Origin: a phage
Direction: 5' to 3' (one strand)
Assembly: GCA_025823825.1 (NCBI GenBank)
Contig: GCA_025823825.1_4720.1
DNA length: 64,000 nucleotides
Position numbers and translations under genes: made by a program. Below, piece after piece: positions 2,416 through 63,731 of this stretch (position 1 is its first letter; every line of letters starts with the position of its first letter). The notes below the pieces were generated by a model. The model worked only from the letters and a program-made list of their open reading frames with translations. It was not told where the DNA came from and did not search any database.

Positions 2416-2458
2416 CATAACCCTCCTCCAACCCATCAGGGAAGGAGGAGGGAATATG
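2416..2458. terminator. conserved palindromic hairpin element, copy 1 (between convergent genes)
   Basis: cata-aCCCTCCTCC-aaccc-atca-gggaa-GGAGGAGGG-aatatg. Confidence 0.6.
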
Positions 2459-2461
2459 CTG

Positions 2462-11513: not shown

Positions 11514-11563
11514 CATAGTTAACCTTCTCCCCAACCCGATGAGGGAAGGGGAGAAGGGCTATG
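11514..11563. terminator. conserved palindromic hairpin element, copy 2 (convergent); A10/T10 run adjacent
   Basis: cata-gttaaCCTTCTCCCC-aaccc-gatga-gggaa-GGGGAGAAGG-gctatg. Confidence 0.6.
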
Positions 11564-11574
11564 CGCTATTTAAT

Positions 11575-17783: not shown

Positions 17784-17978
17784 CCTCCATCAGATTGAAA
17801 ACTATCACGCATAATACATTTCCCTTTTTCTTGTTCTTATCAAGCCGACAGCCGACGGTTTCAGCATCGTTCCTAGCGCGAGAACGACCTTACGTGTTGT
17901 CTATGCCTTATTCATCGCAGGCGTCTGTCACCTAGGTAATGTAAGCGTCAAATTTTTTCTATTCGCAACGATAAACGG

Positions 17979-18026
17979 CATAGAAACCTCCCCCAACCCT
18001 TACGGGCTGAGGGAGGCTGACTTATG
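17979..18026. terminator. hairpin element, copy 3 (3' of the capsid-candidate gene)
   Basis: cata-gaaaCCTCCCcc-aaccc-ttac-ggg-ctga-GGGAGG-ctgacttatg; irregular inner loop. Confidence 0.5.
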
Positions 18027-22758: not shown

Positions 22759-22781
22759 ACACAAAAAAAGATTGTACGGTT

Positions 22782-22819
22782 CCCTCCTCCAACCCGTAAG
22801 GGAAGGAGGAGGGGTTATG
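22782..22819. terminator. hairpin element, copy 4 (convergent)
   Basis: CCCTCCTCC-aaccc-gtaa-gggaa-GGAGGAGGGG-ttatg; A7/T7 run on left flank. Confidence 0.6.
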
Positions 22820-26632: not shown

Positions 26633-26652
26633 GAGTAACGCGCTTAAGACAG

Positions 26653-26697
26653 CATAGAACCCTCTCCCAACCCATAAGGGAAGGGAGAGGGAATATT
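26653..26697. terminator. hairpin element, copy 5 (tandem minus-strand genes)
   Basis: cata-gaaCCCTCTCCC-aaccc-ataa-gggaa-GGGAGAGGG-aatatt; stop codon of 26696 gene in right flank. Confidence 0.6.
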
Positions 26698-31912: not shown

Positions 31913-31958
31913 CGCAGATTCCTGTTTGAAAGATAAGATATCACATGATGGTCGACAG

Positions 31959-31992
31959 CATAAAGCCCACCCCGAAGGGCGGGCTGTTTATG
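31959..31992. terminator. hairpin element, copy 6 (shorter variant)
   Basis: cata-aAGCCCaCCCC-gaag-GGGCGGGCT-gtttatg. Confidence 0.5.
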
Positions 31993-32000
31993 CGTACGGA

Positions 32001-37785: not shown

Positions 37786-37885
37786 TTGGGACTCCTACGT
37801 AGGAAAATCTTGGCGGGTGATCATGTCCGCCATTTACCTTCTGAACCGTTGATTCAGAAGTCAAAAGATAACCGGATACCAATGC

Positions 37886-37939
37886 CATAAAACCTTCCTC
37901 CAACCCAACAGGGAAGGAGGAAGGGATATAGTGGTTATG
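37886..37939. terminator. hairpin element, copy 7 (tandem minus-strand genes)
   Basis: cata-aaaCCTTCCTCC-aaccc-aaca-gggaa-GGAGGAAGG-gatatagtggttatg. Confidence 0.6.
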
Positions 37940-40574: not shown

Positions 40575-40591
40575 AAGATAAACCTGAGCGG

Positions 40592-40636
40592 CATAGAACC
40601 CTCTCCCAACCCGTGAGGGAAGGGAGAGGGAATATG
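40592..40636. terminator. hairpin element, copy 8 (tandem minus-strand genes)
   Basis: cata-gaaCCCTCTCCC-aaccc-gtga-gggaa-GGGAGAGGG-aatatg. Confidence 0.6.
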
Positions 40637-44626: not shown

Positions 44627-45865
44627 TTGAAATCCTTATTTACAAATAAAGGAAAGAAAATGTCTAATTACTACGACCAAGCTATTCAAACCATTCAGGA
44701 GAATAATGCGTCGTTAACACCCGAAGCTGTGGAGGCAGCGGGCAATGCGGTGTTATTCACTGATTCGGATTGGGCAATAGCGCGGAAGAATATTCGTACC
44801 AGTGTCGGTCAAGGGACATACGAGGACAGTATCGCCAGACGGTATCGGAATGTGTCACCTATTCCAGGGAACAGCCCGATTCCGATTAACCGCGATCATG
44901 CCGGTATTACCTTCTTTACACGACCTAATTTACATCTTACCGACGCGAACTTAAAACGAGATCGACGTTTGTGGTCGTTACGCACGGATAACCCTAACAG
45001 TATTCAGGCTGTTGTCCGCGACTACTTGGACCCTGTGGGTGCCAGAAAGCGGAACCATCGAGGACGTGCCATCGTCGATGAGCGCAATCCATTCATAAGT
45101 ATACTGACGGACAACCTGACGGATATCAGCGGTTTCAATGACATGGAAATGCAGGTCTATCAGGGCAAACCGGGATTACGCCAAGAAACCGTTGTGATGG
45201 CTGACGGTTCAGTGGATATGTTTCAACCCTATAACCTGAACGCGACGTTCAAGAACATCATGGGTAACCCCATCATGTTCCTTCATTATATTTGGTTGAT
45301 TTACATCGCTGGTGTGCATAATGGCGAACTGACGCCAAGCCCTCAGGCCATCATTGATAATGAGATGGATTACTGGACAAGATGTTATCGTATCATCTTG
45401 GATCCGACTGGGATGTATGTTCGTTATATCTTCGCACCGACCGCGATGTTTCCTGTCGGACTACCGATTGGTAATATGGCCAACTACAGCATCGATAAAC
45501 CCTTCACGCAAGATAACGAACGTATCACTATTCCATACCAAGCGGTTGGTAACAACGCATTTGATGAGATTCTGAAGGATGAATTCAATCGACTTGTCCT
45601 GATGTTCTATTACGGTGAGAACGATACCCGTACGTTCCTTGAAGATGAGGAGTTGGTACCTATCTCACCCTACGAGCGTCGAATCATGTCGTATCGTGTC
45701 GATATGTATCCATTTATTCATCCGTTGACCTCAGAGCTTCTTTGGTTCGTACCCGCTGATGATTACAACGAATTCTATCTGGATCTTGAGCCGTCGGCGT
45801 TACCACCGGATACGTTCAGTCGCGATCTTGTCCGTACCACCATTCCGCAAAATTACGAGGGATAA
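44627..45865 (+). CDS. hypothetical protein (~400 aa)
   Basis: ORF; probable start ATG at 44660 (MSNYYDQ...) with aaaggaaag RBS. Confidence 0.7.
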   Translation: MKSLFTNKGKKMSNYYDQAIQTIQENNASLTPEAVEAAGNAVLFTDSDWAIARKNIRTSVGQGTYEDSIARRYRNVSPIPGNSPIPINRDHAGITFFTRPNLHLTDANLKRDRRLWSLRTDNPNSIQAVVRDYLDPVGARKRNHRGRAIVDERNPFISILTDNLTDISGFNDMEMQVYQGKPGLRQETVVMADGSVDMFQPYNLNATFKNIMGNPIMFLHYIWLIYIAGVHNGELTPSPQAIIDNEMDYWTRCYRIILDPTGMYVRYIFAPTAMFPVGLPIGNMANYSIDKPFTQDNERITIPYQAVGNNAFDEILKDEFNRLVLMFYYGENDTRTFLEDEELVPISPYERRIMSYRVDMYPFIHPLTSELLWFVPADDYNEFYLDLEPSALPPDTFSRDLVRTTIPQNYEG

Positions 45866-45868
45866 TAA

Positions 45869-48862
45869 ATGAGCGTAACCAACAAAGATCTTGCTGAACA
45901 GCTCAATCGCTATATGCTTTCACCTATTGAAATGCAGGCTGTTGCAAGCGATATGATCCGTTTGGCTTCTGATGGTGAATTAACCCTGGTTGATCCCAGC
46001 TGTCCGTTTGTTTATCTGCTGGAGGTTGCAACGGCGACGGCGGCGAACCAGAACGCGCGGGATGAGTCCCGTGTTCGCGAACTGTATCCAAAACTTGCGA
46101 CCAACTGGAGCCAGCTTTATCGTTGGATGTATGATGAGTCGTACGTTGGACGTTTCGCAATGCCGGGTAAAACGGAAATCATCTATTCGTTAGGGTATCA
46201 GGAAATCCTCGATCGTGCTGTAGAGATTCCCAACACCATCGCCTCCGATGATTTAAGCCGTTCTTACAGCCGTAAGTTAGTGATACCACGTACGACGGCG
46301 TTTACGGTGGCTGGGATGGATTTCGGGTTGCATTATCCCATCGAAATCCAAGTACAAGCGCACGACCAGATACGTGTCGTTTATAACACTGATAACATCA
46401 GCCCATTGCAAACCTTGGAGAGTAACCAAGTTGAGTATGGGGTTGTTCGTGTAAAAGCGGGTAAAGTGTTGGTGATGCGTATCCCGCTGTTCCAGTTTAA
46501 AACGCTGGTAAAAGATGTGCCGTTTAACAGCGTTCACGGGATGAACAGCAGCATTACCTTCGAAGATCAGTTTTACCATTGTCGTGCGTACATGTCGTCG
46601 GATAACGATACCTGGACGGAGATAGCGACAACACACAGTCAGCAGATCTACGATCCGTTAACACCAACTATCGCGTTACAAGTAGAAGGGAACAAACTTA
46701 ACTGGCGTGTTCCTGAAATTTATTTGTCTCAAGGTACGATGGATAAAAGCACCATTCGACTTGAGGTGTTGACGACGAAAGGGAAAATCAGCGTCGACCC
46801 GTCTGATTACGACGTGACCGATTGGAAAGATAACTACATCGATTTGTCACCAAAAGCTGAACAGAAATACAGTGCGCCGCTAAGTGCGTTCAACATTAAA
46901 GGGATTTATAGCGAAGGGGCATTGTCGGGTGGGCGATCTGCGTTAACGTTCGAGGAACAACGTGAACGTGTTATGGCGGGCGTGAACAAAACCAAGGTAC
47001 CGATCACGGGAACGCAGGTAGAGCTGGTGCTTCAAGATGCGGGCTATGGGATGGTGACCACCATCGACAACGTAACCAATCGTTCGTTCCTGGCAACCCG
47101 AGATTTACCGCAATTGAGCGACAGCGTGCCGCAAGCCGGTTCGTTGATGGGGTCTTTCTATACGTCAGCTGCAGCATTGGTGAAAAGTAAGTTTGTCGCT
47201 GATAACGGCGATCGTATTACGATTAAACCTGACTGCCTGTATCGTGACAGTAACGGAAGTATCACACTGTTGTCAGACGATGAAATTGACCGTATTAATG
47301 CAGGCAACTCCGATGCGAAGTTGAACGCGGTAAACAACGCCATGTTGTTTTACAGTCCGTTTCATTACGTATTAGACGCAACAAGCGATTTCGACATACA
47401 TGCTTATTACCTGGATGCCCCTAAGATCGGCACGCAAGCATTCCTCGACGCGAACGAGACAATCCCGTTAACCGCTATGGTGACCGGATACCGTCTGGAT
47501 CGTATCGCCGAAGGATATCGTCTAAGCCTCATTGTAGAAGGTAACGACGCATGGAAAGCGCTCGACGATAAAAACGTGCACATCCAGCTGGGGTTCAATC
47601 CGCGTGGTGAGGGTGATTACGCAACGATGTTAGCATCGCCTACAACCGATGAACAAGGTCGTCGTTTGTTCACTTTCGATATCACCACGAATTATGATTT
47701 TACACGAATCCTGGCCGATGATTCCACGGCGTATGAACCATATATCGCATTGACTTCGTTCTCGATGTATGAATCGACACCGCGGGATTATTGGGCATCA
47801 CTGCAGCAGTATTTGGAAATATTCCATGTGGTGACGGATTACGCGCCGGAAGATGTCGACGGTATCTTACACAGCGCTTCCGATAATTACCTGGTTAAGA
47901 AACTCACGCTTCAAAATGGGTATTGTTTCTACCGTGAACGTCTCACCGCAACCTTTGGTTATGATCTGGATGGTCTTTGGATGCGCTCACGTACGGTGGC
48001 CTCGGAGATTACGTATAAACGTTACACCGAGAACATTCCGTGGGTGTATGATGAAGATATCCCAGCGACGGATGAGACCGGTTCTGTTATCATCGAGCAG
48101 GGTGACGATGGTACGTTGTCGGTTAAATATCTGCATCGTAAAGGTGACCCGAAATTAAACAGTGATGGAAGCCAAGCCTATCGTTACTTGAAAGGCGACA
48201 TCATGAAAGATAATTACGGTAATCCGATCCCCGTCGATGAACGTGAGGTTCTGCGTAACCTGGACATGTTCTTTATTGATGCGTCGTATCTGTTAGCGAA
48301 CGATACAGACGTGATTGAGTATCGTAACGCGATTCCTACGCAGCTTATCGAATGGATCCAGAACGATATCGACACGTTCAGGAATTTCTGTTACGAAGAA
48401 ACAGAGATTTCATTGTATCCTAAGCAATCGCTGGGGTATGTGGATGTTATTGTGGAAAACGGATTGGAAACGACGCTTCCTGCCGCCCTCTCGTTCAACG
48501 TGACACTGTACTTACCAGCTAAGCAATACGCTGACCTGGATTTACGTCAAGTCCTTCAAGCGATGGTATCGAAAGTCATCAATGAATGCTTGACATCCCG
48601 TACAGTAGCTAAAGCAGAAATGATCGCGATGATTCGTGAGGAAGGAGGTGACGACATCCTGAACGTTGAAATCGATGATTTTGGACCAGGTAAGAACCTC
48701 AGTGTTTATACCGCGAAGAACGACGGTGTTCGTTGTGCGGTGAAGAAAGAGCTTTATGTGAAAGCGGATGGTATCTTGTCCGTACGTGAAGCGATCGATG
48801 TAAGTTTTGTGAAACATGCACAAAGCAACAGCACAGCGTTAGCGCAAGGCCTTCGTGTTTAA
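45869..48862 (+). CDS. large hypothetical virion-type protein (997 aa)
   Basis: Long ORF starting 4 nt after the previous stop; ends at a hairpin element. Confidence 0.8.
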   Translation: MSVTNKDLAEQLNRYMLSPIEMQAVASDMIRLASDGELTLVDPSCPFVYLLEVATATAANQNARDESRVRELYPKLATNWSQLYRWMYDESYVGRFAMPGKTEIIYSLGYQEILDRAVEIPNTIASDDLSRSYSRKLVIPRTTAFTVAGMDFGLHYPIEIQVQAHDQIRVVYNTDNISPLQTLESNQVEYGVVRVKAGKVLVMRIPLFQFKTLVKDVPFNSVHGMNSSITFEDQFYHCRAYMSSDNDTWTEIATTHSQQIYDPLTPTIALQVEGNKLNWRVPEIYLSQGTMDKSTIRLEVLTTKGKISVDPSDYDVTDWKDNYIDLSPKAEQKYSAPLSAFNIKGIYSEGALSGGRSALTFEEQRERVMAGVNKTKVPITGTQVELVLQDAGYGMVTTIDNVTNRSFLATRDLPQLSDSVPQAGSLMGSFYTSAAALVKSKFVADNGDRITIKPDCLYRDSNGSITLLSDDEIDRINAGNSDAKLNAVNNAMLFYSPFHYVLDATSDFDIHAYYLDAPKIGTQAFLDANETIPLTAMVTGYRLDRIAEGYRLSLIVEGNDAWKALDDKNVHIQLGFNPRGEGDYATMLASPTTDEQGRRLFTFDITTNYDFTRILADDSTAYEPYIALTSFSMYESTPRDYWASLQQYLEIFHVVTDYAPEDVDGILHSASDNYLVKKLTLQNGYCFYRERLTATFGYDLDGLWMRSRTVASEITYKRYTENIPWVYDEDIPATDETGSVIIEQGDDGTLSVKYLHRKGDPKLNSDGSQAYRYLKGDIMKDNYGNPIPVDEREVLRNLDMFFIDASYLLANDTDVIEYRNAIPTQLIEWIQNDIDTFRNFCYEETEISLYPKQSLGYVDVIVENGLETTLPAALSFNVTLYLPAKQYADLDLRQVLQAMVSKVINECLTSRTVAKAEMIAMIREEGGDDILNVEIDDFGPGKNLSVYTAKNDGVRCAVKKELYVKADGILSVREAIDVSFVKHAQSNSTALAQGLRV

Positions 48863-48878
48863 AACAAAATAGCGTGAG

Positions 48879-48921
48879 CATAACCCTCCTCCAACCCGTA
48901 AGGGAAGGAGGAGGGAATATG
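48879..48921. terminator. hairpin element, copy 9 (convergent)
   Basis: cata-aCCCTCCTCC-aaccc-gtaa-gggaa-GGAGGAGGG-aatatg; right flank aatatgctgttat identical to copy 1. Confidence 0.6.
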
Positions 48922-48924
48922 CTG

Positions 48925-51717
48925 TTATCTTACGTTATTGCTATTCTGTTGTTCACTGAACCAACCATACACCTTGAGATCGGTACCGTATTTCAATGCG
49001 ATATACGCATTCAGCGCAGCACAGAACAAAGACGCGAATGCCCATATCAGCGAAGGATCAACATCTTCCGTTACCACTGGGAGAGTATTATCCGGTTCCC
49101 ATGATGGTGAACTGTCCATGAACGTCGCGTACCATCCCCGCCGTTGTTCTTCGGTGGTAAAGTCGCTGTGGGGTTCCAATGCTTCTTTTGCCAGACGTCG
49201 ATATTCGAACATATGCGTTGCTAAAGCCGACGAGTTACCAGATTCGCCTTCATAGTTCGGATCCACCGCATAACAGAGTTCTGTTGAATCTAACAAAGCA
49301 ACCGCCTGTGTGATGCTGTCGGCAGTGCCTGCACCATAGAGCTCGATAGACCGCGAAAGCTTCTCACAGAACGCATTTAACGCGGAAGGATTGGACACCT
49401 GAAGGTCAAGGCCTAATGTCCACGGATAGTTACTGAATACACCCGTAAACCGTGGCATAACACCCAACAGATGCTGTCCGATTACAGCGCGGTTATAAAC
49501 AGCCCTGTTATAGACTTGAAACGCAGCCTCCAAGGCTTGGTTATAATGACGACGAAGTTCGTCACGCGAGTTGCGGAATCTGTTTGCCGCGAGACTCGTG
49601 GCTGCGACGCTACAAACATCGTAATTGGTGGACGAGAGCACAACCTCGTTAAGATCGAACGCTTCCTGTTTCAATGTTCCGCTAACAGCCACCGCTTCGC
49701 TGTTCGCTTTATCGACAACAGTACTCAAAGCGTTGATGTAACGCTTAGCCCGGACTTCCAGCCATTGTGCGATGCCGAGAATATCCACCGCAGCTTTAGC
49801 AAGATCGCGAGCATTCACGATTTCGTTCTTCAACGCCCCTAAATCTTTATTTTCAGGCGATGAGGCTTGTTGACGAATCATGCTGTTCAACATGGTAAGC
49901 AGATTATCCAACTCATGTCCACTGACCTTGTTACGTGCATCGGTAATCGGCCCTTGCAGGAATTTACGGCAACCATCGTTGTATCGAATCAGTTTATCCA
50001 CATCGATAGATTCGTTCGTGGATTCCTTGAACTGATTCTTCAATTCTTCACGGTAATCATGGATTTCACTTGCGAGATTATCGATAGTGATACCGTTATG
50101 TCCAAGAAGAACTTTATTGAAGTTACCTTTCTCGAATGCCAGAGCAAGACCTTCACGAATCTTAGCGAGTTTATCCTGATCGAGTTCACGACCGTTCGAT
50201 AGCTCTTTCACTTCCGAGCTGATTAATGCCGAAACGTTACCCAGATTGTCGGTAACCCCTTTGAACGCTCCCGACCAAATCGTTCCTGCTTCAGCGTATT
50301 TCGCAATGGTCTGAATACCGACGGTGTGCAGCGACGCTAAACGTTTCTTCGTGCCTTCGGTAAGCAGAGCGTCTTTAGCTCGCGTAAGCTGACTGTTATT
50401 AGCTTCTGCCTGCTGAATCGCTGCTTTCGCACTTCCATTACGCCAGCTCTTAACCAGCCAATCAACCAAACGTTTTAGGATATTGACGGTGTATTCCATT
50501 GTCCGCCGTAACGTTTCCCACGCGCTTTCTGCGGTATAGATGCCGTACCCTTCCATCTTCGTTGGGTCAAAGAAACCTTCCTGCATGAGATCAATACGGG
50601 TGTAGCCATCAGCAGCTTCTACTTCCGCCTGGGTTTTATCCCAGAAGTCGTCGCTCTTTGCAGCAACCGCTGTATCTTTAACGTCCAGGATGATCTGACC
50701 AACCGTTTGTGCAAACAGCAAGGCCGCACGTACCGATTGTGCGAACATCCGCTGATATTTGATTCGAACGCATTGCATCTGGGTTAGCAGATTCAGTTGT
50801 GCGATCCCATCCAAGGTGCTATCCTGAGCAAGCCCTTCGGCTTTAGCGATAACCTGTTTTACACGTTCAGCGACATCACCATACTGCTGGCAAACATCCC
50901 GCAGAATACGTGCCGCGAAGACCCCGGTACCGATATAGTTCAATAGGTCTTTTAACGACCATTCGGTCGGACAATCGGTCGGCGCAATAGGGAGTAAGCA
51001 ACCATCACCGTCCATGAATCTCTCTAATGCGCTAATATCCTGATTTTCTACGCTCATGGGGATATCGACATCAGCCGCTTGCAGATCCAGCATCTGTTGT
51101 AGGATGTTGGTATCGGCTTGTACAAGCGTCGCAAGCGCTTGGCTGTGTGCGATTATTGGTAACGCAGGTGACCATACTGCAGCAAGCTTGTCGGCGTGAC
51201 GTTGAATGGCATACCCCATATCCTCGATCACATCGGGATGCTCGATAACCCCCTGAAGCGTTTGATGTAGCTCACCGAGTTGCTGAGACAGATCGACCAT
51301 CATGGTGTTGAAGGTTTCGCCATCCTCTTTGTGGTTGTCCAGACGCTCGAGTTCATGTCGAAGCAATGTGACGAGCTGTCCGTTGCCTTCTTGCTTCAGC
51401 TTGCTTTCCATTAACGTAATGGCTTTATCGACGATCTGACACGCTTCACGAAAACCGGTTGTGGAAGGAAGCTCTGTCCATAACGCCAGCGGTTTACCGT
51501 CAAGGGCTTCCGGCATCGATAACGAAAGCATAGACAGTTGTTGACGTGATACTTGCTGTTCACGGTGTAGTGTTTCTTTTAACGCCAAGAGATCGTCAAG
51601 AAACGCGCCGTTAAGGGTGGTCGTACGCGGTGTTGAATTAATACCGTCAGTTAACGATTCAAGCACCAGGAGACCGTTATCAGCTGAAGAGAGTCCCGCG
51701 GCAAGATATTTGTTCAT
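48925..51717 (-). CDS. large virion/head-type protein (930 aa), probable paralog family D
   Basis: Long ORF; ATG lies in TTTATG right after hairpin with ggag RBS; helical central region resembles family D. Confidence 0.8.
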   Translation of the reverse strand: MNKYLAAGLSSADNGLLVLESLTDGINSTPRTTTLNGAFLDDLLALKETLHREQQVSRQQLSMLSLSMPEALDGKPLALWTELPSTTGFREACQIVDKAITLMESKLKQEGNGQLVTLLRHELERLDNHKEDGETFNTMMVDLSQQLGELHQTLQGVIEHPDVIEDMGYAIQRHADKLAAVWSPALPIIAHSQALATLVQADTNILQQMLDLQAADVDIPMSVENQDISALERFMDGDGCLLPIAPTDCPTEWSLKDLLNYIGTGVFAARILRDVCQQYGDVAERVKQVIAKAEGLAQDSTLDGIAQLNLLTQMQCVRIKYQRMFAQSVRAALLFAQTVGQIILDVKDTAVAAKSDDFWDKTQAEVEAADGYTRIDLMQEGFFDPTKMEGYGIYTAESAWETLRRTMEYTVNILKRLVDWLVKSWRNGSAKAAIQQAEANNSQLTRAKDALLTEGTKKRLASLHTVGIQTIAKYAEAGTIWSGAFKGVTDNLGNVSALISSEVKELSNGRELDQDKLAKIREGLALAFEKGNFNKVLLGHNGITIDNLASEIHDYREELKNQFKESTNESIDVDKLIRYNDGCRKFLQGPITDARNKVSGHELDNLLTMLNSMIRQQASSPENKDLGALKNEIVNARDLAKAAVDILGIAQWLEVRAKRYINALSTVVDKANSEAVAVSGTLKQEAFDLNEVVLSSTNYDVCSVAATSLAANRFRNSRDELRRHYNQALEAAFQVYNRAVYNRAVIGQHLLGVMPRFTGVFSNYPWTLGLDLQVSNPSALNAFCEKLSRSIELYGAGTADSITQAVALLDSTELCYAVDPNYEGESGNSSALATHMFEYRRLAKEALEPHSDFTTEEQRRGWYATFMDSSPSWEPDNTLPVVTEDVDPSLIWAFASLFCAALNAYIALKYGTDLKVYGWFSEQQNSNNVR

Positions 51718-51732
51718 AAAACACTCCGTTGG

Positions 51733-51764
51733 CCCAGGGGAAGGTTTTCAGCCTTCCCCTAGGG
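51733..51764. terminator. hairpin element, copy 10 (variant, directly upstream of RBS of 48925-51717)
   Basis: cccAGGGGAAGG-ttttcag-CCTTCCCCTaggg; about 13 nt from the ggag RBS of the next gene. Confidence 0.45.
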
Positions 51765-51776
51765 TTATAAACACAA

Positions 51777-54581
51777 TTAAGCTAATTTACCGAAACCGGC
51801 TTTCTGCAGTTTCTCGTTGATCAGTTTTGCTTCCGCGAAAACATAATCACGATACGCAGTCACTAACGCATCCACACGTGAACGCAAGGCTTCTTCGAAG
51901 CTATACCACGCAGCGATTTCACGAATCTGTGCGTTGATATAATCAACGGTTGAGCGAAGCTCGGTTGCGTTTTCTTGCGGGATGGCTTTCACCTGGCGAG
52001 CAACGTCATTTAAACGACGGAACTGCGTTTCGATTTCTTTAAACTTACTGTCGGCAAGTTTGCTGAATTCGTCACCGGAACGTGTAAATAACAGATAGCT
52101 GTTGCCGTCAAGTGCGGTCGCTAACTGCTGAAGTACGTTGGTGTCCGGATACACAGGAGTACCGCTTTGCAATACTTTCTCACCGAATTCCGCGAAGTCC
52201 TTCGGCGGTAAGTGCGCAGACGTTGTCAACTCGTTGAAACGGAAAGTCAGCGAATTGTCATACAGCATCCGGTACGCTTCCATGCCCTGTTTCATGGTAC
52301 CAGCCAGGTTGGCCAGACGCGGAGCAATCTCACCCTCTTTAGCGCGTTTCTGGTCTTCTAACGCCCCTTCCAGTTCTTTACACTGGTCATTCAGATACAC
52401 GATACGATCGGGACGCAGACGACGCATCTCACGAAGAATAGTATCCAGCTTACCTTCCTGGAAATAACCCAACGTTAAAGACGTACACGCTTGCTGAAGA
52501 CGATCGAAGACCGGTAAGGTCACCATCTCCTTACGGATACCATCAACAATCGCAGAAACAGCCGAAAGTTTCTGTTCTGTCGTTAATGGAACATCAGAGA
52601 CCGACTTGCTGGGCGCACCAACAACGTTACGCATTGCGTCGGTATCCTCGGTTTTATCAACCTCTTTACGAACATGCTCATCAGGAACATAAACGTTCGC
52701 ATTACGTTTCGCCTGCTTGATGGCATCGTTGGCCGCTTTTTCGGTGGCTGCTACGCTATCGGCACGTTTCTTCAAGAGTTCAATAATCCAGAGCACCAGA
52801 CGACGAATCGCAGTGTAGGCTGTCGTGATGATGACACCGATAACCGCCATCTTCATGATACCGAACGATTCCATGGTCGGCTCTAACGCCTGGTCGGGCA
52901 TATACCGTTCACGCAGCTCCAGATAGATCTGCTCATCCGGTTTGCTGATCTCGCCACGATGCGAAGTCCGATAGATGGCTTCGTCAATCTCAACAAGATC
53001 TTTGCGTGCCTGACGGTCTGTTTCGGTCAAATAAGCGCAGCCGGATACGTCGTCTTCAAAACTTTCGAACTTAAAGAAATCGACAACCATCTTGGCAAGC
53101 GCCTCTTTCTTAGCAGGATCGAGTGTCTTCGCATCTTCTTTTTGCTTATCCATTTTTTCCTTGAATTTCTCTTTGTAGTCATTCAAGGGTTTTACCGCTC
53201 TTGCTTTCAACGCGTTATAGATAGCTTTCCACTCATCGTTACGTTCGAGGACAATGAAATGGTTTTTGAGTTCGAAAGCGCGATAGCGTGCAACGAGCTG
53301 TTCTACCTGAATATGAGCGAGTTGGATATCCATTAACCAACGCGACATCGCCGAGATCAAACGGCTATAAGCGAACAACGTTTGGTAGGTTAACTTCATG
53401 TATGTTTCATACAGCTCAATATCGCCGCTCTGAATATTGGCTGTTGGATTCATTTCCTTTGTTGCCTTGAAGACCTGTTCTGCTTCTCTCAGCGTCTTTT
53501 CGAACTTAACGTCATTAAACGCAGTGAATGGTTCAGCCAACTCATGCATTTTATCGTGGAGTTCGCGGATCCAAGCTTCCTTGCTGTCGCGGATGGTGTT
53601 TTCATCATGGAGCACGGTTTGATGTTTTCGTACCCATTCTTCCACGATATCAGCAGCGGAAACAATCGGAACGCGATCTGAAATGAGCGGGACGATCGTG
53701 TGAAGCGCCCCGACACATTCTGGCGTGTCCCAGTGTTTCTGGAGTTCATCACGGAAACGGTTAATGTTTTCTAAGGTGGTACCTAAATCAAGGAAAGTGC
53801 CGCCATTATGACTCATCTGTGCAACCAGATCGGCAAATACCTTTTGTTTTTCGATGACAAAAGGAACCATCCGCATAAGCCATTCAGCAGTTGCTTTAGC
53901 CTTTTCTTTCAGGTTCTTATCAGCGATTTCCTTAAGGTTAATCGCGCTACCGTATCCAGCAAGTTCGTTGTAGACGTCGTTAAGCGTCATTTGTTTATCC
54001 AACATTTCTTTGAAACGTGGATAATCTGCACCTAACGCGTCGATGACTTCTTGGATGATGTCGTCTGTGGTAGCGATAAATTTATTTGTGCCGCCGTAAT
54101 GCTTCCAGATTTTCTGCAGCGTCTTCTTAAAGAATTCGAAGACGAATGTCCAGATACGTTTGATGAGTTCCCAGACTTTCTTCGCACCATCGACAAACAG
54201 TTTAGAGACCTTGGCAACGAATCCTTCCTGCACTAACTCAACGCCGTTACGTGATGGGATTTCCGTGAAGAAAGCATCTGGCAGTTGTTTCGGGAACGCA
54301 TCACCAAGACGCATACGCAATTCGGGTACATCGGCACGAGAAATACCACGCGTCGTTAGCTGCTCGTGAAGACGAACGTTTTCTTCACCAGAGGCTACGA
54401 ATTCGTTAACGTCAAATGAAACCAGTTCTTGATCTTCGGTGGTAACGACGCTTGAACCATCGCTGGTTTGGATGTCTTCGTCAGGGAACGCCATGAGCAT
54501 ACCGTGACGCATTTCAACCACTCCGTAATCGGTTGCTAAACCGAATTCGTTGTGATCGGGGGTAATAACTGGGATACTCAT
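51777..54581 (-). CDS. large virion/head-type protein (934 aa), paralog family D
   Basis: Long ORF; ...VELVQEGFVAKVSKLFVDGAKKVWELIKRIWTFVFEFF... aligns with the family D core. Confidence 0.8.
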   Translation of the reverse strand: MSIPVITPDHNEFGLATDYGVVEMRHGMLMAFPDEDIQTSDGSSVVTTEDQELVSFDVNEFVASGEENVRLHEQLTTRGISRADVPELRMRLGDAFPKQLPDAFFTEIPSRNGVELVQEGFVAKVSKLFVDGAKKVWELIKRIWTFVFEFFKKTLQKIWKHYGGTNKFIATTDDIIQEVIDALGADYPRFKEMLDKQMTLNDVYNELAGYGSAINLKEIADKNLKEKAKATAEWLMRMVPFVIEKQKVFADLVAQMSHNGGTFLDLGTTLENINRFRDELQKHWDTPECVGALHTIVPLISDRVPIVSAADIVEEWVRKHQTVLHDENTIRDSKEAWIRELHDKMHELAEPFTAFNDVKFEKTLREAEQVFKATKEMNPTANIQSGDIELYETYMKLTYQTLFAYSRLISAMSRWLMDIQLAHIQVEQLVARYRAFELKNHFIVLERNDEWKAIYNALKARAVKPLNDYKEKFKEKMDKQKEDAKTLDPAKKEALAKMVVDFFKFESFEDDVSGCAYLTETDRQARKDLVEIDEAIYRTSHRGEISKPDEQIYLELRERYMPDQALEPTMESFGIMKMAVIGVIITTAYTAIRRLVLWIIELLKKRADSVAATEKAANDAIKQAKRNANVYVPDEHVRKEVDKTEDTDAMRNVVGAPSKSVSDVPLTTEQKLSAVSAIVDGIRKEMVTLPVFDRLQQACTSLTLGYFQEGKLDTILREMRRLRPDRIVYLNDQCKELEGALEDQKRAKEGEIAPRLANLAGTMKQGMEAYRMLYDNSLTFRFNELTTSAHLPPKDFAEFGEKVLQSGTPVYPDTNVLQQLATALDGNSYLLFTRSGDEFSKLADSKFKEIETQFRRLNDVARQVKAIPQENATELRSTVDYINAQIREIAAWYSFEEALRSRVDALVTAYRDYVFAEAKLINEKLQKAGFGKLA

Positions 54582-55069
54582 GCATTCTCTCCTTGCAGTG
54601 CGTTAGCGAAAGCCGTTGCAAGTTGCGCAACCAGTTTCGGATCAACGCCTTCGATAACGTCAGGCAGCCCTGCGGTTTCTTGGTCACGAACAGCGGAGGC
54701 TAATAACAGCATGGTTTCAGGTGCGGTCGGCTCATGCACCATGCGGTAACGCAGGCACCAGAAGTAGCGAGCAACGTCTAACGCATCAGCCAGCCCGATA
54801 ACCAGTACCTTGTTCAGCTTATCCAGCCCTTCACGGATTTTAGGGAGATGTTCGCGAACGAAAATGCTATCTGCGGTCAGATCTTCTTTTTCAGCGAATA
54901 CCGGCATGCTGTAACCGGCGATGTAACCAGCGGCAATACTTAACGCGCGGGTCTGTTGTTCGGCTGGGAAGTCACGTACCAGGTCTTTCAGCTGAACGGC
55001 GAAATCAGAAATATTCATGTTAAATTCCTTTATAGTAAAATAGAAGAGATTAAGCGATAATGGAATCAA
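54578..55069 (-). CDS. small hypothetical protein (~145-163 aa)
   Basis: ORF; track start overlaps upstream gene, probable ATG near 55019 (MNISDFAVQ...). Confidence 0.55.
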   Translation of the reverse strand: MIPLSLNLFYFTIKEFNMNISDFAVQLKDLVRDFPAEQQTRALSIAAGYIAGYSMPVFAEKEDLTADSIFVREHLPKIREGLDKLNKVLVIGLADALDVARYFWCLRYRMVHEPTAPETMLLLASAVRDQETAGLPDVIEGVDPKLVAQLATAFANALQGENA

Positions 55070-56360
55070 GAGTCGCTGCGGTTTTGAACAGATCGCTGTT
55101 CATTGTAGAAGAAAGGACTTGCTGAATTTCTTCCTGTTTAACGGCTTTACGAACTCCAGGACGAAGGATAAGCGTAACAATCTGCATAAATGTACGGTTG
55201 TTGTTCATCGCGCTTAACGTTTCATCAATTGTTTTGATGGTATCTAACGTAGTGGAGCGTATGTCGCTAGGGAGGTCACGATCTTTCAGACGTATAATCA
55301 AATCTTGTTTGATTTTTCTGAATCGTTCCATATCGTTGTCATAGATGCTGTATGTCGGATCTAACCAAACTGCAAGCGCCATAGCAGCAACAAATATTGC
55401 CATACCAAGAATATTAACCGAGGTGAAGCTGATCGCTATCAAAATTGTCACGGCTGCATCTTTAATGAAGGAGAGCCAGAACATCGTTTTTGACTTCATG
55501 GAGTTGGTGCCATAAAGTCGAAACATTTTAGCAAGCCCGCTAACGAGATACTCCCCACTGCCGTGACGCGTAGCGAACTGATCGGCCATGAATTCGGAAG
55601 CAACGTCGGTATATCGTCCAGCGTTGTTTACATTTCTTAACTGCATCGCTTTGTTAGACACGTAAACCGTGTACCAGACACTACCGTCGTCTGAATCACT
55701 GATTTTGTCTACGTCGACGTTGGTATCCAACGTTTTGTTTAACGCTTTCGCCAGTTCGATACGTTTTACCTTATCGGTTGTTCCCAACAGTTCGCGCTGC
55801 ACGGTCATGATTGAGGCTTCGACACGAACCGTTTCCGACAATGTTTCAAGGAAGGTAAATGCGTGCCCGATTTCATGCAGCATTATGGCTGCTTTTTCTT
55901 CCGGAAGAAAGGGTTCTGTTGCTGTTAGCAATTCATACGTGATGGCAGAACGAATCTTCAATTCTTCAAAGATACCGTAAACACGACCTTTTTCTAAATC
56001 GACGTAACCGACAGGTGTATCTTTAATCTTCTTAAGGAGCGTAACACCATCAGCACCACGCATCCATAACCGGTGATAGTCTGCCAGGATTGTGTTGTTT
56101 GTCGAAATATCCGGCGGGTATACGTAGGCATTCATCTGACCCATTTTCACGTCGACCGAGAATTCGATGTTCAACCCCGTATAGCGTTTGACCATCTTGG
56201 TTAAATGACCGTCCTTGAAAACGTTTAAAACATCTTTTTTATCCAGTCCCTGTTTGCTTCTGAAGAACTCGGTCATTTCCTTGAACAAGGAACCATCCTG
56301 AAACTTGATGGCCTCCATCGTTAATTCGTCATGACCATACACGCGTTGTAGTAATGACAT
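55050..56360 (-). CDS. putative membrane zinc metalloprotease (HExxH, M48/M56-like)
   Basis: 436-aa ORF; IMLHEIGHAF motif; downstream acidic ...EFMADQFATRHG; two hydrophobic segments (...VTILIAISFTSVNILGMAIFVAAMALAVWL). Confidence 0.65.
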   Translation of the reverse strand: MSLLQRVYGHDELTMEAIKFQDGSLFKEMTEFFRSKQGLDKKDVLNVFKDGHLTKMVKRYTGLNIEFSVDVKMGQMNAYVYPPDISTNNTILADYHRLWMRGADGVTLLKKIKDTPVGYVDLEKGRVYGIFEELKIRSAITYELLTATEPFLPEEKAAIMLHEIGHAFTFLETLSETVRVEASIMTVQRELLGTTDKVKRIELAKALNKTLDTNVDVDKISDSDDGSVWYTVYVSNKAMQLRNVNNAGRYTDVASEFMADQFATRHGSGEYLVSGLAKMFRLYGTNSMKSKTMFWLSFIKDAAVTILIAISFTSVNILGMAIFVAAMALAVWLDPTYSIYDNDMERFRKIKQDLIIRLKDRDLPSDIRSTTLDTIKTIDETLSAMNNNRTFMQIVTLILRPGVRKAVKQEEIQQVLSSTMNSDLFKTAATLDSIIA

Positions 56361-56581
56361 TGTACACTCTCTAAATTTACGTAAATTTAAGGGCTAATGG
56401 ATCGGCTGGCCGCACCAATCACAATGTGTTCGTTGCTATGCAACGGCATTCATAGAAATACCTTTTGACGGTAACATCACCCATCACACCCCAAGCAATA
56501 AGAGTGGTCGGTTAAAAACAACAGAACGTGAGGATGATATAGAAATTCACCTTTTAACACCTATTACGAGTTTAGCAAGCC

Positions 56582-58333: not shown

Positions 58334-58382
58334 ATCAAGTATGTTGATCCTCGTTTAACAAAAAAAGAAAACGCATGCGAAG

Positions 58383-58435
58383 CCCCTCCCCCTGGCGGAA
58401 GCCGGAGGGAGGGGTGGAGGTTTTATGCGTTTTTA
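58383..58435. terminator. hairpin element, copy 11, with T-run on plus strand (terminator of DNA polymerase fragment gene)
   Basis: CCCCTCCCCC-tggcggaagccgg-AGGGAGGGG-tggaggttttatgcgttttt. Confidence 0.6.
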
Positions 58436-58879
58436 ATTATTGCTGCTGGGGTTATCGCCCGGATTATATTCGATGCTGTAGGCGACGTCGCGGTCTGTCG
58501 TATGAACGACAAGCGTGACGGGGAAATCATAATGCGCGGTTTTGTCTCGAACGAACGGGGTAAAGAGATCCGTATAACGTATTAAGTCTTCCCTGGTGTA
58601 ATCGGAAGGGAAGAAGGCATCGATGGTTATTGAATCTTCATAGAGGCGTATGATCAGCTTATCCAGAAGGTTGCTATATTGGTTAGCTGGGGTGACGTTC
58701 AGGTGACAGAAGTCACCGTCTTCTGCTTCTCGCAATACCCATACCGTGGTATCCTGTAACGTATTTTCAAGGATCTCGAAAATGCAGTTTGCTGTAAGTC
58801 TTAGTTTATTTGTTACTTCATGGTTAGGGGAATAATGCTCACGAATGTTTTTCACTGCGTCTTTGATAGAGAAAGTCAT
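58433..58879 (-). CDS. small protein, paralog family A (C-terminal DFPVTLVVH...EYNPGD motif)
   Basis: Track ORF 58433-59110 trimmed to internal ATG at 58879 (MTFSIKD...) because a separate-frame ORF occupies 58893-59186. Confidence 0.55.
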   Translation of the reverse strand: MTFSIKDAVKNIREHYSPNHEVTNKLRLTANCIFEILENTLQDTTVWVLREAEDGDFCHLNVTPANQYSNLLDKLIIRLYEDSITIDAFFPSDYTREDLIRYTDLFTPFVRDKTAHYDFPVTLVVHTTDRDVAYSIEYNPGDNPSSNN

Positions 58880-58892
58880 TGCTGCTGCTCCT

Positions 58893-59186
58893 TTAAAAGA
58901 TATCAAGCCATGAGGATGGAGGAACCAGTTCGCTGGTAAAGTAATCGCCACTGATACCACTATCATCAAAGTGACGTTCGTTGTAACACTGGACGAGCTT
59001 ACCTCCACGTTCTTTCTGATACCATCCAAGGATACTATTAAGACCTCTGTCCACGCATTCGAATGCTTGAGTAATAACATCCTCAACGACGGAGGCTGCC
59101 GTGGGACCATTGAATAGACGATCTAAGCGCTTTTTCATCGATTTGGTTTTCTCGTTCATGATTTCTTTTCCTGTTATAATCGGCAT
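58893..59186 (-). CDS. small hypothetical protein (88-97 aa)
   Basis: ORF; first ATG coincides with hairpin-flank TATG; an alternative start 27 nt in has agga upstream. Confidence 0.45.
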   Translation of the reverse strand: MPIITGKEIMNEKTKSMKKRLDRLFNGPTAASVVEDVITQAFECVDRGLNSILGWYQKERGGKLVQCYNERHFDDSGISGDYFTSELVPPSSWLDIF

Positions 59187-59227
59187 ACAACCCTTCCCCG
59201 GCCTTGACGGCTAGGGAAGGGGCTATG
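59184..59227. terminator. hairpin element, copy 12
   Basis: cata-caaCCCTTCCCC-ggccttgacggcta-GGGAAGGGG-ctatg. Confidence 0.5.
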
Positions 59228-59235
59228 CTACGTTG

Positions 59236-59664
59236 TTATGCTTCGCAATCAGCTGAAGGCGTCGCGCCTTTCTTACCAGCGATACGCCAAATCCGACACG
59301 CTGGGTAATGGTTAACCTCTAGAGAGCAAGGAATGTTATATTTCTCTTCCAGCGCATAAAGACATTTCGTTAGCTGCTCCAGCGCGTTCTCGTCGTGTCG
59401 TAACGCGTGGTGACCTAATCGATGTTGGTCGTTCTTTATATACGCCTCGAAGAGAACATGTTGGCGATGTACGCTGACGTTTACAGCCTCGAGTATAGCT
59501 TGGTCGAGCATACGACTAAAGCACATCAACGAGTCAGATACGTTTTCTCGCTTAACCAGATCGATCATGGCGGGAATATACGAATGGTCGATGTTATCGA
59601 TGACCGCTTTAGCGACGGAATCAGCAACGTTCATCTTTTTAATCCCTAGTTTGTTATTGATCAC
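59236..59664 (-). CDS. small protein, paralog family B member 1 (142 aa)
   Basis: Shares V(A/V)KAV(I/N)DNIDH...MIDL(V/I)K...EEKYNIP(C/F)SLEVN with 59671-60066. Confidence 0.6.
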   Translation of the reverse strand: MINNKLGIKKMNVADSVAKAVIDNIDHSYIPAMIDLVKRENVSDSLMCFSRMLDQAILEAVNVSVHRQHVLFEAYIKNDQHRLGHHALRHDENALEQLTKCLYALEEKYNIPCSLEVNHYPACRIWRIAGKKGATPSADCEA

Positions 59665-59670
59665 GTATAT

Positions 59671-60066: not shown

Positions 60067-60098
60067 TTTTTATCCTTAATGTTATCGATTTGGAAATA

Positions 60099-60866: not shown

Positions 60867-60868
60867 GA

Positions 60869-61327: not shown

Positions 61328-61393
61328 TATTCTACCTCAATGGTTTAACCGATACGTGCCCCACCTAACAAGGGACACGTTATCGTTGATTAA

Positions 61394-61894: not shown

Positions 61895-61931
61895 TTCTTT
61901 CTTAATCTAAATGTTAGTTGGGGTGGGATGC

Positions 61932-62564: not shown

Positions 62565-62582
62565 TTAATGATGAAAAGCTGT

Positions 62583-62612: not shown

Positions 62613-62637
62613 AAAACGTCAGACACACGCGGGAAAA

Positions 62638-63162: not shown

Positions 63163-63184
63163 CGTTAACAAGAAATAAAAAACA

Positions 63185-63240
63185 GCATAGAAACCTCCTC
63201 CCCCATCCTTCAAGAGGACGGTGGGAAGAGGGAGAGATTA
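63185..63240. terminator. hairpin element, copy 13 (degenerate)
   Basis: cata-gaaaCCTCCTCCCCC-atccttcaagaggacggt-GGGAAGAGGGAGAG-attaaatg; imperfect stem. Confidence 0.4.
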
Positions 63241-63639: not shown

Positions 63640-63686
63640 GGAGTGCTTTTCCTATTTTTATTTTCTGCACAGGATAAATTCAACGG

Positions 63687-63731
63687 CATAAAGCCCTTCC
63701 CTGCCCTTATATGGGGCGGGAAGAGTTTATG
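63687..63731. terminator. hairpin element, copy 14
   Basis: cata-aaGCCCTTCCCtGCCC-ttatat-GGGGCGGGAAGAG-tttatg. Confidence 0.5.

What the first reader, a model, noticed from the sequence alone, without database searches (positions are those of the whole stretch)
51717..51764. Hairpin element abuts the RBS and start codon of the next gene
For gene 48925-51717 the start ATG sits inside a TTTATG about 13 nt after the hairpin (minus strand: hairpin, ccaacGGAGtgtttt, ATG). For ORF 58893-59186 the first ATG is the TATG of the element flank. Separately, the right-flank TTATG(C) often contains the stop codon of the upstream minus-strand gene, which then ends GCA-TAA (2462, 37935, 59236, 63859). If the hairpin is a full terminator these genes need a promoter overlapping it; otherwise the hairpin acts as an attenuator, a processing site, or a translational regulator that occludes the RBS.
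Basis: seen in the sequence. Interest (0 to 1): 0.5.

Follow-up and report, generated by a model that had tools for sequence, protein, structure and literature searches.

The report
Conserved hairpin between two phage genes
The window comes from a giant E. coli phage close to Goslar; most of its "hairpin + TTATG" elements are the transcription terminators already described in phage phiKZ, while the flagged hairpin is a conserved but atypical stem-loop between two co-transcribed virion genes, and it does not hide the ribosome-binding site.

Summary
The window is 97.6% identical to Escherichia phage Goslar, a nucleus-forming jumbo phage. The hairpin is real: a 12-bp GC-rich stem with a 7-nt loop at 51733-51764 (minus strand). 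It starts 12 nt after the stop of gp65 and ends 15 nt before the ATG of gp64, with an exposed GGAG between. Eleven related genomes keep it fully paired, with two compensatory pair changes and one U.G.

It is not a typical member of the phage's hairpin family. Thirteen other window loci, and 52 strand-sites in Goslar, have a pyrimidine-rich arm, loop, purine-rich arm, then TATG-C-Y-G-T within 0-3 nt. This matches the terminator motif mapped in phiKZ and 201phi2-1. TATG is equally frequent at convergent gene ends, so it belongs to the terminator. It is also the core of the phage RNA polymerase's late promoter.

The flagged hairpin has neither that tail nor a U-tract, and there is no room for a promoter. 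gp64 must therefore be read through. The most likely role is an RNA stability or processing boundary, or a leaky terminator. RBS occlusion is not supported. The ATG-in-TATG and GCA-TAA details are at or near chance level.

The parts
51733..51764 (-). Flagged stem-loop. The 12-bp stem pairs 51763-51752 with 51744-51733; the loop ctgaaaa is 51751-51745.
   Evidence: It is 100% paired in 4 distinct haplotypes, with 2 compensatory pairs and 1 U.G.
51724..51727 (-). Shine-Dalgarno GGAG of gp64. It lies 5 nt after the stem and 6 nt before the ATG, outside the stable helix.
   Evidence: The stretch CAACGGAGTGTTTTATGAACAAATA is identical in all 11 relatives.
51715..51717 (-). Start codon of ORF 48925-51717 (homologue of Goslar_00064, 930 aa).
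   Evidence: Synonymous-type differences begin right after it.
51777..51779 (-). TAA stop of ORF 51777-54581 (homologue of Goslar gp65, an inner capsid vertex-binding-complex protein). It lies 12 nt upstream of the stem.
48879..48921 (.). Canonical bidirectional terminator that closes the gp64 transcription unit. It sits between convergent genes and carries TATG on both strands.
56451..56454 (-). Hairpin-less TTTCTATG, 90 nt upstream of the start of the gp67 homologue. It is a candidate late promoter core for the gp67-gp66-gp65-hairpin-gp64 unit (inferred).
2416..2458 (.). Canonical terminator-type element (CCCTCCTCC..GGAGGAGGG + TATG on both strands) between convergent genes.
   Evidence: Annotated as a putative terminator in Goslar (27746-27777).
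11523..11566 (.). Canonical element between convergent genes, with TATG on both strands.
17975..18022 (-). Canonical element downstream of the major capsid gene; hairpin followed by TTTCTATGCCGT.
22781..22819 (+). Canonical element; hairpin followed by TTATG.
26649..26691 (-). Canonical element; hairpin followed by TTCTATGCTGT.
31955..31993 (-). Canonical element in which GCATAAA and TTTATGC extend the stem.
37882..37924 (-). Canonical element; hairpin followed by TTTTATGGC.
40588..40630 (-). Canonical element; hairpin followed by TTCTATGCCG.
58378..58428 (+). Canonical element after the plus-strand polymerase-like gene; hairpin followed by GTTTTATGCG.
59180..59226 (-). Canonical element; hairpin followed by TTGTATGCCG. 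Its ATG (59186) is not the gene start; the real start is at 59159.
63182..63231 (-). Canonical element; hairpin followed by TTTCTATGCTGT.
63683..63730 (-). Canonical element; hairpin followed by CTTTATGCCGT.
61350..61385 (-). Second TATG-less intercistronic hairpin in the window. It abuts the SD (GAGG) and the ATG at 61327 of the next gene.

Best explanation

The phage's main hairpin family has a pyrimidine-rich arm, a loop and a purine-rich arm, followed 0-3 nt later by TATG-C-Y-G-T. This is the conserved intrinsic terminator already mapped in phiKZ and 201phi2-1.

The flagged hairpin at 51733-51764 is a different, atypical member of the intergenic hairpin population. It is a conserved 12-bp RNA stem-loop between gp65 (a capsid vertex-complex protein) and gp64. 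Both genes lie in one late transcription unit: candidate TATG promoter at 56454-56451, then gp67, gp66, gp65, the hairpin, gp64, then the bidirectional terminator at 48879-48921.

The hairpin has no TTATG or U-rich tail, and no promoter can fit between it and the SD. The polymerase must therefore read through it (inferred). The hairpin most likely acts on the RNA as a decay barrier or processing boundary. It would protect the 3' end of the gp65 segment, or the 5' end of the gp64 segment, and so set unequal amounts of the two messages (inferred, not shown). It leaves the GGAG and AUG of gp64 accessible.
For: Identity of the phage: (97.6% to Goslar).

The family is the known terminator:
- The published phiKZ motif is BCCYCCCCHWWDGGGRRGGBYTTATKYYGT, from 61 mapped 3' ends (PMC10914365). 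201phi2-1 has the same motif, and eight of its terminators were shown to work in vivo (PMC11512511).
- In Goslar, 52 of 103 strong intergenic hairpin strand-sites carry TATG near the stem end, against a 7-8% background (p about 4e-29) and 3 of 48 genic hairpins.
- The spacing from stem to TATG is 0-3 nt in 42 of 52 sites, and the consensus is TATG-C-Y-G-T.
- The 3' half of the phiKZ consensus hits 6 window sites at 2 mismatches or fewer, against 0.7 expected.
- The same hairpin+TTTATGYYGT elements are visible in 50 kb of phiKZ itself.
- TATG is present at 22 of 30 strand-sites at convergent gene ends, so it is part of the terminator.

The flagged hairpin is real and maintained:
- Searches show the fold.
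- Eleven related genomes fall into two intergenic haplotypes. The stem is 100% paired, with G-C changed to U-A, A-U changed to G-C, and one U.G that pairs only in the sense-strand RNA.
- The distance to the ATG (15 nt) is fixed, while the sequence upstream of the hairpin differs.

It is not a terminator of either known type:
- The tail CCAACGGA contains no U, it is not called by the hairpin+T-run scan, and it has no TTATG.

There is no promoter room:
- The only TATG is the start codon.
- Four other Goslar loci show the same 'hairpin directly abutting SD-ATG, no adjacent terminator-type TATG' layout. There is one more in the window.

The SD is not in the stem.
Against: - No transcript data exist for Goslar-like phages in the literature I could search. 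Read-through, 3'/5' ends and stability effects are all inferred.
- The termination requirements of the phage polymerases are unknown, so a tail-less hairpin could still terminate part of the time.
- The compensatory changes come from only two haplotypes. They could arise without selection on RNA, through template switching within a DNA palindrome. The loop is found in both orientations among close relatives (ccaataa / ttattgg), which shows that such DNA-level events do occur at this site.
- A TATG inside the gp65 coding region about 125 nt upstream (near 51847) could be an internal promoter. That would make the hairpin a 5'-UTR element rather than an intercistronic one.
Confidence: 0.5

Rival explanations
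1. Leaky terminator or pause site for the phage polymerase. The tail-less hairpin stops a fraction of polymerases, so gp64 is transcribed less than gp65. This would be a constitutive step-down, not a regulated attenuator.
For: - It sits where terminators sit, 12 nt after a stop codon.
- The stem is as stable as those of family members (-23 to -27 kcal/mol).
- In 201phi2-1, 32 mapped terminators have no recognised motif, and many are not classed as intrinsic.
- A U-rich stretch (UGUUUUAU) begins 9 nt after the stem.
Against: - It lacks the TATG tail that is strongly selected at family terminators (46 of 103 sites carry TATG, against 7 with TATT and 11 with TATA).
- It lacks an adjacent U-tract.
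- gp64 has no promoter of its own, so termination cannot be efficient.
Confidence: 0.25
2. Translational control. A helix between the hairpin's upstream flank and the start-codon region closes around the hairpin and sequesters the AUG, so gp64 translation depends on opening of this structure.
For: - In a 91-nt context, UGUUUAUAA pairs with UUAUGAACA.
- The other haplotype has a different upstream flank (UUGUUCA) that is again complementary to UGAACAA at the start codon. That helix appears in the minimum-energy fold of 3 of 4 type-B sequences.
Against: - The helix has 7-9 AU-rich pairs across a 13-15-nt one-sided bulge.
- It disappears from the minimum-energy fold of the window and Goslar sequences when 10 more nt of context are added. 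There the AUG is 60-74% unpaired.
- The SD is never inside the stable stem.
- Flank inverted repeats (CATAA..TTATG) are a general by-product of bidirectional terminator elements.
Confidence: 0.1
3. A DNA-level palindrome with no RNA function. It would be a degenerate former bidirectional terminator, kept perfectly paired by intrastrand template switching, or a binding site for a dimeric DNA-binding protein.
For: - The loop is inverted between close relatives, which indicates palindrome-mediated DNA rearrangement.
- On the plus strand of type A the hairpin is followed by TTATAAAC, which resembles a decayed TTATG tail.
Against: - The stem sequence changes while pairing is kept, which argues against sequence-specific protein binding.
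- The single asymmetric change in the window gives U.G in the sense RNA, but a C.A mismatch in the antisense RNA.
- The position relative to the gp64 start is fixed in both haplotypes.
Confidence: 0.1
4. Full terminator with an overlapping promoter at this site.
For: The phage late-promoter core is only TATG with +1 at the G, so terminator-promoter overlap is possible in principle at the canonical elements. There, the G lies at least 16 nt upstream of the next start in nearly all tandem cases.
Against: At 51733-51764 the only TATG is the start codon, so a transcript starting at its G would lack both the AUG and the SD. No other known promoter motif fits in the 15 nt.
Confidence: 0.05

Closest known systems
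phiKZ-type conserved intrinsic terminator (5'-BCCYCCCCHWWDGGGRRGGBYTTATKYYGT-3'; Putzeys et al. 2024, PMC10914365; motif A of 201phi2-1, PMC11512511)
   Same: - Thirteen window loci and 52 Goslar strand-sites share its features: a Y-rich 5' arm, an R-rich 3' arm, a short loop, then (T)TTATG-Y-Y-G-T within 0-3 nt.
- They lie in intergenic positions after stop codons and are often bidirectional between convergent genes.
- The flagged hairpin shares the position, stem length and stability.
   Different: - The flagged hairpin has mixed arms (CCCTAGGGGAAGG / CCTTCCCCTGGG) and no TTATG tail on the sense strand.
- The Goslar-type stems are longer than those of phiKZ, usually with an internal UU/UU mismatch.
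- No 3'-end mapping exists for this phage.
phiKZ non-virion RNA polymerase late promoter (5'-TATG-3', +1 at G, read by the beta-like subunit gp123; PMC4666361, PMC12809450)
   Same: The tetranucleotide after the family hairpins is exactly TATG. G is strongly preferred over T, A or C at the fourth position. In tandem gene arrays it lies upstream of the next gene's SD.
   Different: - The TATG tail is just as common at convergent gene ends, where there is nothing to promote.
- It carries an extension (CYGT) that hairpin-less intergenic TATGs lack.
- The model promoter p119L has no upstream hairpin.
- At the flagged site the TATG is the start codon.
Intercistronic stem-loops that set differential mRNA segment stability in polycistronic operons (for example REP/stem-loop barriers in malEFG, and 5' stem-loops such as that of ompA); from general knowledge, not tested here
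   Same: A stable GC-rich hairpin between two cistrons of one transcription unit, without a terminator tail, with an AU-rich single-stranded spacer upstream of it.
   Different: No decay or processing data exist. These mRNAs are made in a phage nucleus and exported, so exposure to host RNases occurs only in the cytoplasm.
Phage T7 RNase III processing sites (R1.1-type; from general knowledge)
   Same: A possible upper stem (12 bp), an asymmetric internal loop and a lower stem (7-9 bp), located between genes of a late operon in an E. coli phage.
   Different: The lower helix is weak and context-dependent. The internal loop is one-sided and 13-15 nt long. There is no sequence similarity and no Rfam match.

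Membership tests
phiKZ-type conserved intrinsic terminator | Stable GC-rich stem-loop in an intergenic region shortly after a stop codon | tested here: met
   The stem has 12 bp and folds at -22.9 kcal/mol. It starts 12 nt after the TAA of gp65.
phiKZ-type conserved intrinsic terminator | Pyrimidine-rich 5' arm (CCYCCCC) and purine-rich 3' arm (GGGRRGG) | tested here: not met
   The flagged hairpin has arms CCCTAGGGGAAGG / CCTTCCCCTGGG, which are of mixed composition. Thirteen other window loci do meet this feature.
phiKZ-type conserved intrinsic terminator | 3' tail YTTATKYYGT directly after the stem | tested here: not met
   The sense-strand tail is CCAACGGAGT. The consensus search gives no hit at this site, and the census places it in the class with TATG on neither strand (Goslar 74839-74869). 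The plus strand has TTATAAAC in type A only.
phiKZ-type conserved intrinsic terminator | Mapped RNA 3' end at the tail | not testable with these tools
   No Goslar transcript-end data were found.
Canonical bacterial intrinsic terminator | U-tract (at least 5 T in 8) starting 0-2 nt after the stem | tested here: not met
   The site is not reported by the scan of 45000-64000. Only 62612-62595 has a clean T-run.
nvRNAP late promoter (TATG, +1 = G) | TATG positioned so that the transcript includes the SD and AUG of the downstream gene | tested here: not met
   The only TATG between the hairpin and the gene is the start codon itself. The feature is met in position at canonical tandem elements, where the G-to-start distance is at least 16 nt.
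nvRNAP late promoter (TATG, +1 = G) | Initiation by the phage polymerase | not testable with these tools
   This needs in vitro transcription or mapping of primary 5' ends.
RBS-sequestering translational operator | SD and/or AUG lie inside the conserved stable helix | tested here: not met
   GGAG lies in the single-stranded spacer. The AUG is touched only by an alternative weak helix; P(unpaired) is 0.6-0.74 in the window and Goslar sequences.
RNase III site (T7 R1.1-like) | About 20 bp of coaxial dsRNA with an internal loop | tested here: inconclusive
   The structure offers 12 bp plus an optional lower helix of 7-9 bp, which is present in some folding contexts only.
Any curated RNA family (Rfam 15) | Match at gathering threshold | tested here: not met
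   There are 0 matches in the whole window.

The most novel reading that the evidence does not exclude
The TATG tail of chimallivirus terminators may not be a stand-in for a U-tract. It may be read by the same pocket of the phage non-virion polymerase (the beta-lobe of the gp123 homologue) that reads TATG on the non-template strand at late promoters.

Capture of TATG in the transcription bubble would pause the enzyme 5-8 nt after the stem. That is the geometry needed for hairpin-driven release, so one 4-nt signal would serve both termination and, in tandem arrays, immediate re-initiation at the G.

On this reading, tail-less hairpins such as 51733-51764 are the designed read-through version of the same module.
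Probability: 0.2. Interest if true: 0.8.

Novelty: new member of a known kind. Interest (0 to 1): 0.38.

Why it matters
The immediate gain is annotation. The hairpin+TTATG elements can be marked as phiKZ-type terminators in Goslar-like phages. Several small ORFs or start codons placed on the tail's ATG are probably wrong. The gp67-gp64 block can be read as one late transcription unit with an internal RNA element.

The wider interest is a coincidence not pointed out in the papers I could read. The terminator tail is specifically TATG in E. coli phage Goslar, and the TATG tail is also seen in Pseudomonas phage phiKZ. TATG is also the late-promoter core, whose insufficiency for promoter specificity is an acknowledged open problem (PMC7598289, PMC12809450). 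Templates with hairpin +/- TATG, and tail-less natural hairpins such as this one, give a direct in vitro test of how these sigma-less polymerases terminate and choose promoters.

Tried and rejected
- Exact or 3-mismatch search for further copies of the flagged hairpin found none. It is unique, not a repeat copy.
- The sigma-70 promoter and T-run terminator scan does not see the family or the flagged hairpin. Sigma-70-like sites are depleted, 17 against 31 expected.
- Rfam gave no match.
- 'ATG inside TATG' as a sign of leaderless or flank-initiated genes is rejected: 22% of starts, which is chance.
- GCA-TAA gene ends as part of the element show weak enrichment only (7 of 247, p about 0.06).
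- gp64 and gp65 as paralogues is not significant (E = 0.01).
- The flank-AUG helix as an RBS/AUG occluder is context-dependent and weak.
- A shared extended motif at hairpin-less TATGs in divergent promoter regions was not found.
- I looked for experimental overlap of TSS and TTS in phiKZ and 201phi2-1. The supplementary tables are not held, and Ceyssens 2014 is not held.
- Goslar transcript-boundary data were not found.
- Depletion of TATG on the antisense strand of coding regions (1.57/kb against 3.31/kb on the sense strand) was noted. It is not interpretable without a codon-usage control.
Full report
**What the window is.** Bases 48000-56000 are 97.6% identical over their full length to Escherichia phage vB_EcoM_Goslar. 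Goslar is a 237-kb nucleus-forming jumbo phage (Chimalliviridae). The window corresponds to roughly 25.3-89 kb of that genome. The two genes that flank the finding are homologues of Goslar_00065 (ORF 51777-54581) and Goslar_00064 (ORF 48925-51717). gp65 is a protein of the inner capsid vertex-binding complex and a homologue of phiKZ gp86, and gp66 just upstream is a homologue of phiKZ gp85 (bioRxiv 10.64898/2026.04.21.720040). gp64 has no assigned function.

**The observation.**
- On the minus strand the sequence reads: TAA (51779-51777), ttgtgtttataa, CCCTAGGGGAAGG-ctgaaaa-CCTTCCCCTGGG (51764-51733), ccaacGGAGtgtttt, ATG (51717).
- The stem has 12 bp and folds at -22.9 kcal/mol on its own.
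- The 91-nt region folds better than all 200 shuffles, z = -3.2.
- The gap between stem and ATG is 15 nt, not 13.
- The ATG is the true start. Goslar annotates it the same way. Among relatives, the differences that begin right after it are mostly synonymous third-position changes.

**Conservation of the hairpin.**
- Searches with the gp64 protein recovered ten further genomes. Together with the window they form two intergenic haplotypes.
- Type A (window, Goslar and three others) has the stem above.
- Type B (six genomes, 76-98% protein identity) has CCCTAGGTGGAGG / CCTCCACCTAGG, a different loop, about 28 extra nucleotides with a second small hairpin upstream, and the same CAACGGAGTGTTTTATGAACAAATA downstream.
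- On the four distinct sequences all 48 pair cells are standard pairs. Two pairs changed on both sides (G-C to U-A, A-U to G-C). One pair is U.G in the window only, and that change pairs only in the sense-strand RNA.
- The type-B loop occurs as ccaataa or as its reverse complement ttattgg in otherwise near-identical genomes. The loop sequence is therefore free, and the DNA palindrome occasionally flips.
- That flipping is a caveat. Palindrome-driven template switching can also create 'compensatory' changes without selection on RNA.

**The hairpin family.**
- A sliding-fold census found 15 intergenic loci with dG <= -20 in the window and 58 in the whole Goslar genome.
- Intergenic DNA is 7% of the Goslar genome but holds 103 of the 151 strong strand-sites that are clearly intergenic or genic.
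- Thirteen of the 15 window loci share one design: a pyrimidine-rich arm (for example CCCTCCTCCTTCCC), a 4-6-nt loop and a purine-rich arm, followed by TT(C)TATGC(C/T)GT.
- In Goslar, TATG lies within a few bases of the stem end at 52 of 103 intergenic strand-sites. The background is 7-8% of intergenic windows (p about 4e-29), and only 3 of 48 genic hairpins have it.
- The spacing is 0-3 nt in 42 of 52 sites, and the consensus continues C-Y-G-T.
- The fourth base is specifically G: 46 TATG, against 11 TATA, 7 TATT and 2 TATC.

**This family is already known.** ONT-cappable-seq of phiKZ defined 61 intrinsic terminators with the motif BCCYCCCCHWWDGGGRRGGBYTTATKYYGT (PMC10914365). 201phi2-1 has the same motif, and eight of its terminators were validated in vivo (PMC11512511). 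The 3' half of that consensus hits six window elements at 2 mismatches or fewer, against 0.7 expected, and TATGCYGT occurs 13 times against 3.6 expected. Folding 50 kb of phiKZ shows the same hairpin+TTTATGYYGT units, for instance right after the major capsid gene. The Goslar GenBank record already labels some of these sites 'putative transcriptional terminator'.

**Terminator tail or promoter?**
- TATG with +1 at the G is the late-promoter core of the phiKZ non-virion polymerase. It is necessary but not sufficient in vitro, and it is read on the non-template strand by the beta-like subunit (PMC4666361, PMC12809450).
- The census nevertheless shows that the tail is first of all a terminator feature. 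At convergent gene ends, where nothing lies downstream to be promoted, 22 of 30 strand-sites have it. In tandem arrays 22 of 38 sense-strand sites have it, and no tandem locus has it on the antisense strand alone.
- Hairpin-less TATGs in divergent promoter regions lack the CYGT extension. The model promoter p119L has no upstream hairpin.
- A second role as promoter is not excluded. In tandem arrays the G lies at least 16 nt upstream of the next start in nearly all cases.
- None of the papers I could read points out that the terminator tail and the promoter core are the same four bases.

**The flagged hairpin is not a family member.**
- Its arms are of mixed composition.
- Its sense-strand tail (CCAACGGA...) has neither TATG nor U's.
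- Neither the T-run scan nor the consensus search reports it.
- It belongs to a minority class of hairpins that directly abut an SD and start codon without the adjacent terminator-type TATG tail: five tandem loci in Goslar and one more in the window at 61385-61350.
- The only TATG here is the start codon, so a transcript starting at its G would lack both the SD and the AUG. gp64 must therefore be transcribed through the hairpin, and the hairpin cannot be a full terminator.
- The likely unit is: candidate TTTCTATG at 56454-56451, then gp67, gp66, gp65, the hairpin, gp64, then the canonical bidirectional terminator at 48879-48921.

**Mechanism.**
- GGAG lies outside the stem. Only AU-rich alternative helices of 7-9 bp between the upstream flank and the start region touch the AUG.
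- Such a helix is present in a 91-nt fold and in most type-B folds, but it is lost in the window sequence with slightly more context. There the AUG is 60-74% unpaired. RBS occlusion is therefore not supported.
- Ribosome-dependent attenuation is implausible, because these mRNAs are made in a compartment that strictly uncouples transcription from translation (PMC12908238 abstract).
- I therefore favour an RNA-level boundary element at about 0.5. It would be a decay barrier or processing site that gives the gp65 and gp64 segments different stability.
- The main rival is a leaky terminator or pause site, at about 0.25. Both readings are inferences, because no transcript-end data for Goslar-like phages were found.

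- A T before the ATG occurs at 22% of Goslar starts, which is chance.
- The real start of the ORF at 58893-59186 is the ATG at 59159.
- GCA-TAA gene ends are only weakly enriched (7 of 247, p about 0.06) and lie 9 nt or more from the stems.

**Verdict.** The hairpin is real and conserved. The element family it was grouped with is a known kind of terminator, seen here in a new phage group. The flagged site is an atypical read-through variant whose function remains untested. The most interesting lead is that the terminator tail and the late-promoter core are identical, which can be tested directly in vitro.

Noticed in passing
L007, L013, L014 versus L009, L011, L012: the loop of the hairpin upstream of the gp64 homologue (locus positions about 2965-2975 in L007/L009): The 7-nt loop is ccaataa in some genomes and its exact reverse complement ttattgg in otherwise near-identical genomes. 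This is a hairpin-loop inversion and implies palindrome-mediated DNA template switching at this site.
   Followed up: partly
window 56582-58333 (+) versus Goslar 79690-82469: The window has one 583-aa polymerase-exonuclease-like ORF. In Goslar the homologous ORF stops at 499 aa and is followed by a NUMOD1/HNH endonuclease gene (Goslar_00069). That gene and Goslar_00070 have no match in window 56000-64000. This looks like a presence/absence polymorphism of a homing endonuclease.
   Followed up: partly
window 61350-61385 (-): A second TATG-less intercistronic hairpin (CGATAACGTGTCCC..GGGGCACGTATCG). It ends 22 nt before the ATG at 61327 and is followed directly by a GAGG Shine-Dalgarno. The layout is the same as at the flagged site.
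   Followed up: partly
window 62595-62612 (-): The only clean host-type terminator in 45-64 kb: GGTGGGGTTCGCCCCACC followed by T10. The phage therefore carries two terminator styles, T-run and TATG tail, possibly for different polymerases or expression classes.
   Followed up: no
window 45000-64000: Sigma-70-like promoter matches are depleted (17 found, 31 +/- 5 expected). This is consistent with a phage that does not use the host polymerase.
   Followed up: no
Goslar whole genome (L002-L006): TATG is rarer on the antisense strand of coding regions (1.57/kb) than on the sense strand (3.31/kb) or in intergenic DNA (5.0/kb). This could reflect avoidance of spurious antisense promoter cores or simply codon usage; it was not controlled.
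   Followed up: no
window 2455-2467 (+); Goslar 27741-27783 and 93440-93482 (+ strand): On one side of some bidirectional elements the tail is duplicated (TATGCTGTTATGC). The second copy supplies the GCA-TAA end of the neighbouring minus-strand gene.
   Followed up: partly
Goslar_00047 (49584-49772), Goslar_00167 (152177-152272), Goslar_00183 (166088-166924): The annotated start codons of these genes are the ATG of a terminator's TATG tail. The purine-rich arm plus TATG mimics an SD-AUG, so the two tiny ORFs and the one long N-terminus may be annotation artefacts.
   Followed up: no
window 56451-56454 (-): A hairpin-less TTTCTATGAATGCCGTTG lies 90 nt upstream of the gp67 homologue, in a divergent intergenic region. 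It is a candidate late promoter for the gp67-gp64 unit and is conserved in Goslar (79562).
   Followed up: partly
type-B relatives, about 25-45 nt upstream of the main hairpin (for example L009 2925-2945): Type-B genomes carry an additional small hairpin (GCGTAC-CGTATAACC-GTACGC) between the gp65 stop and the main hairpin. Type A lacks it. Two adjacent hairpins could separately cap the upstream 3' end and the downstream 5' end.
   Followed up: no
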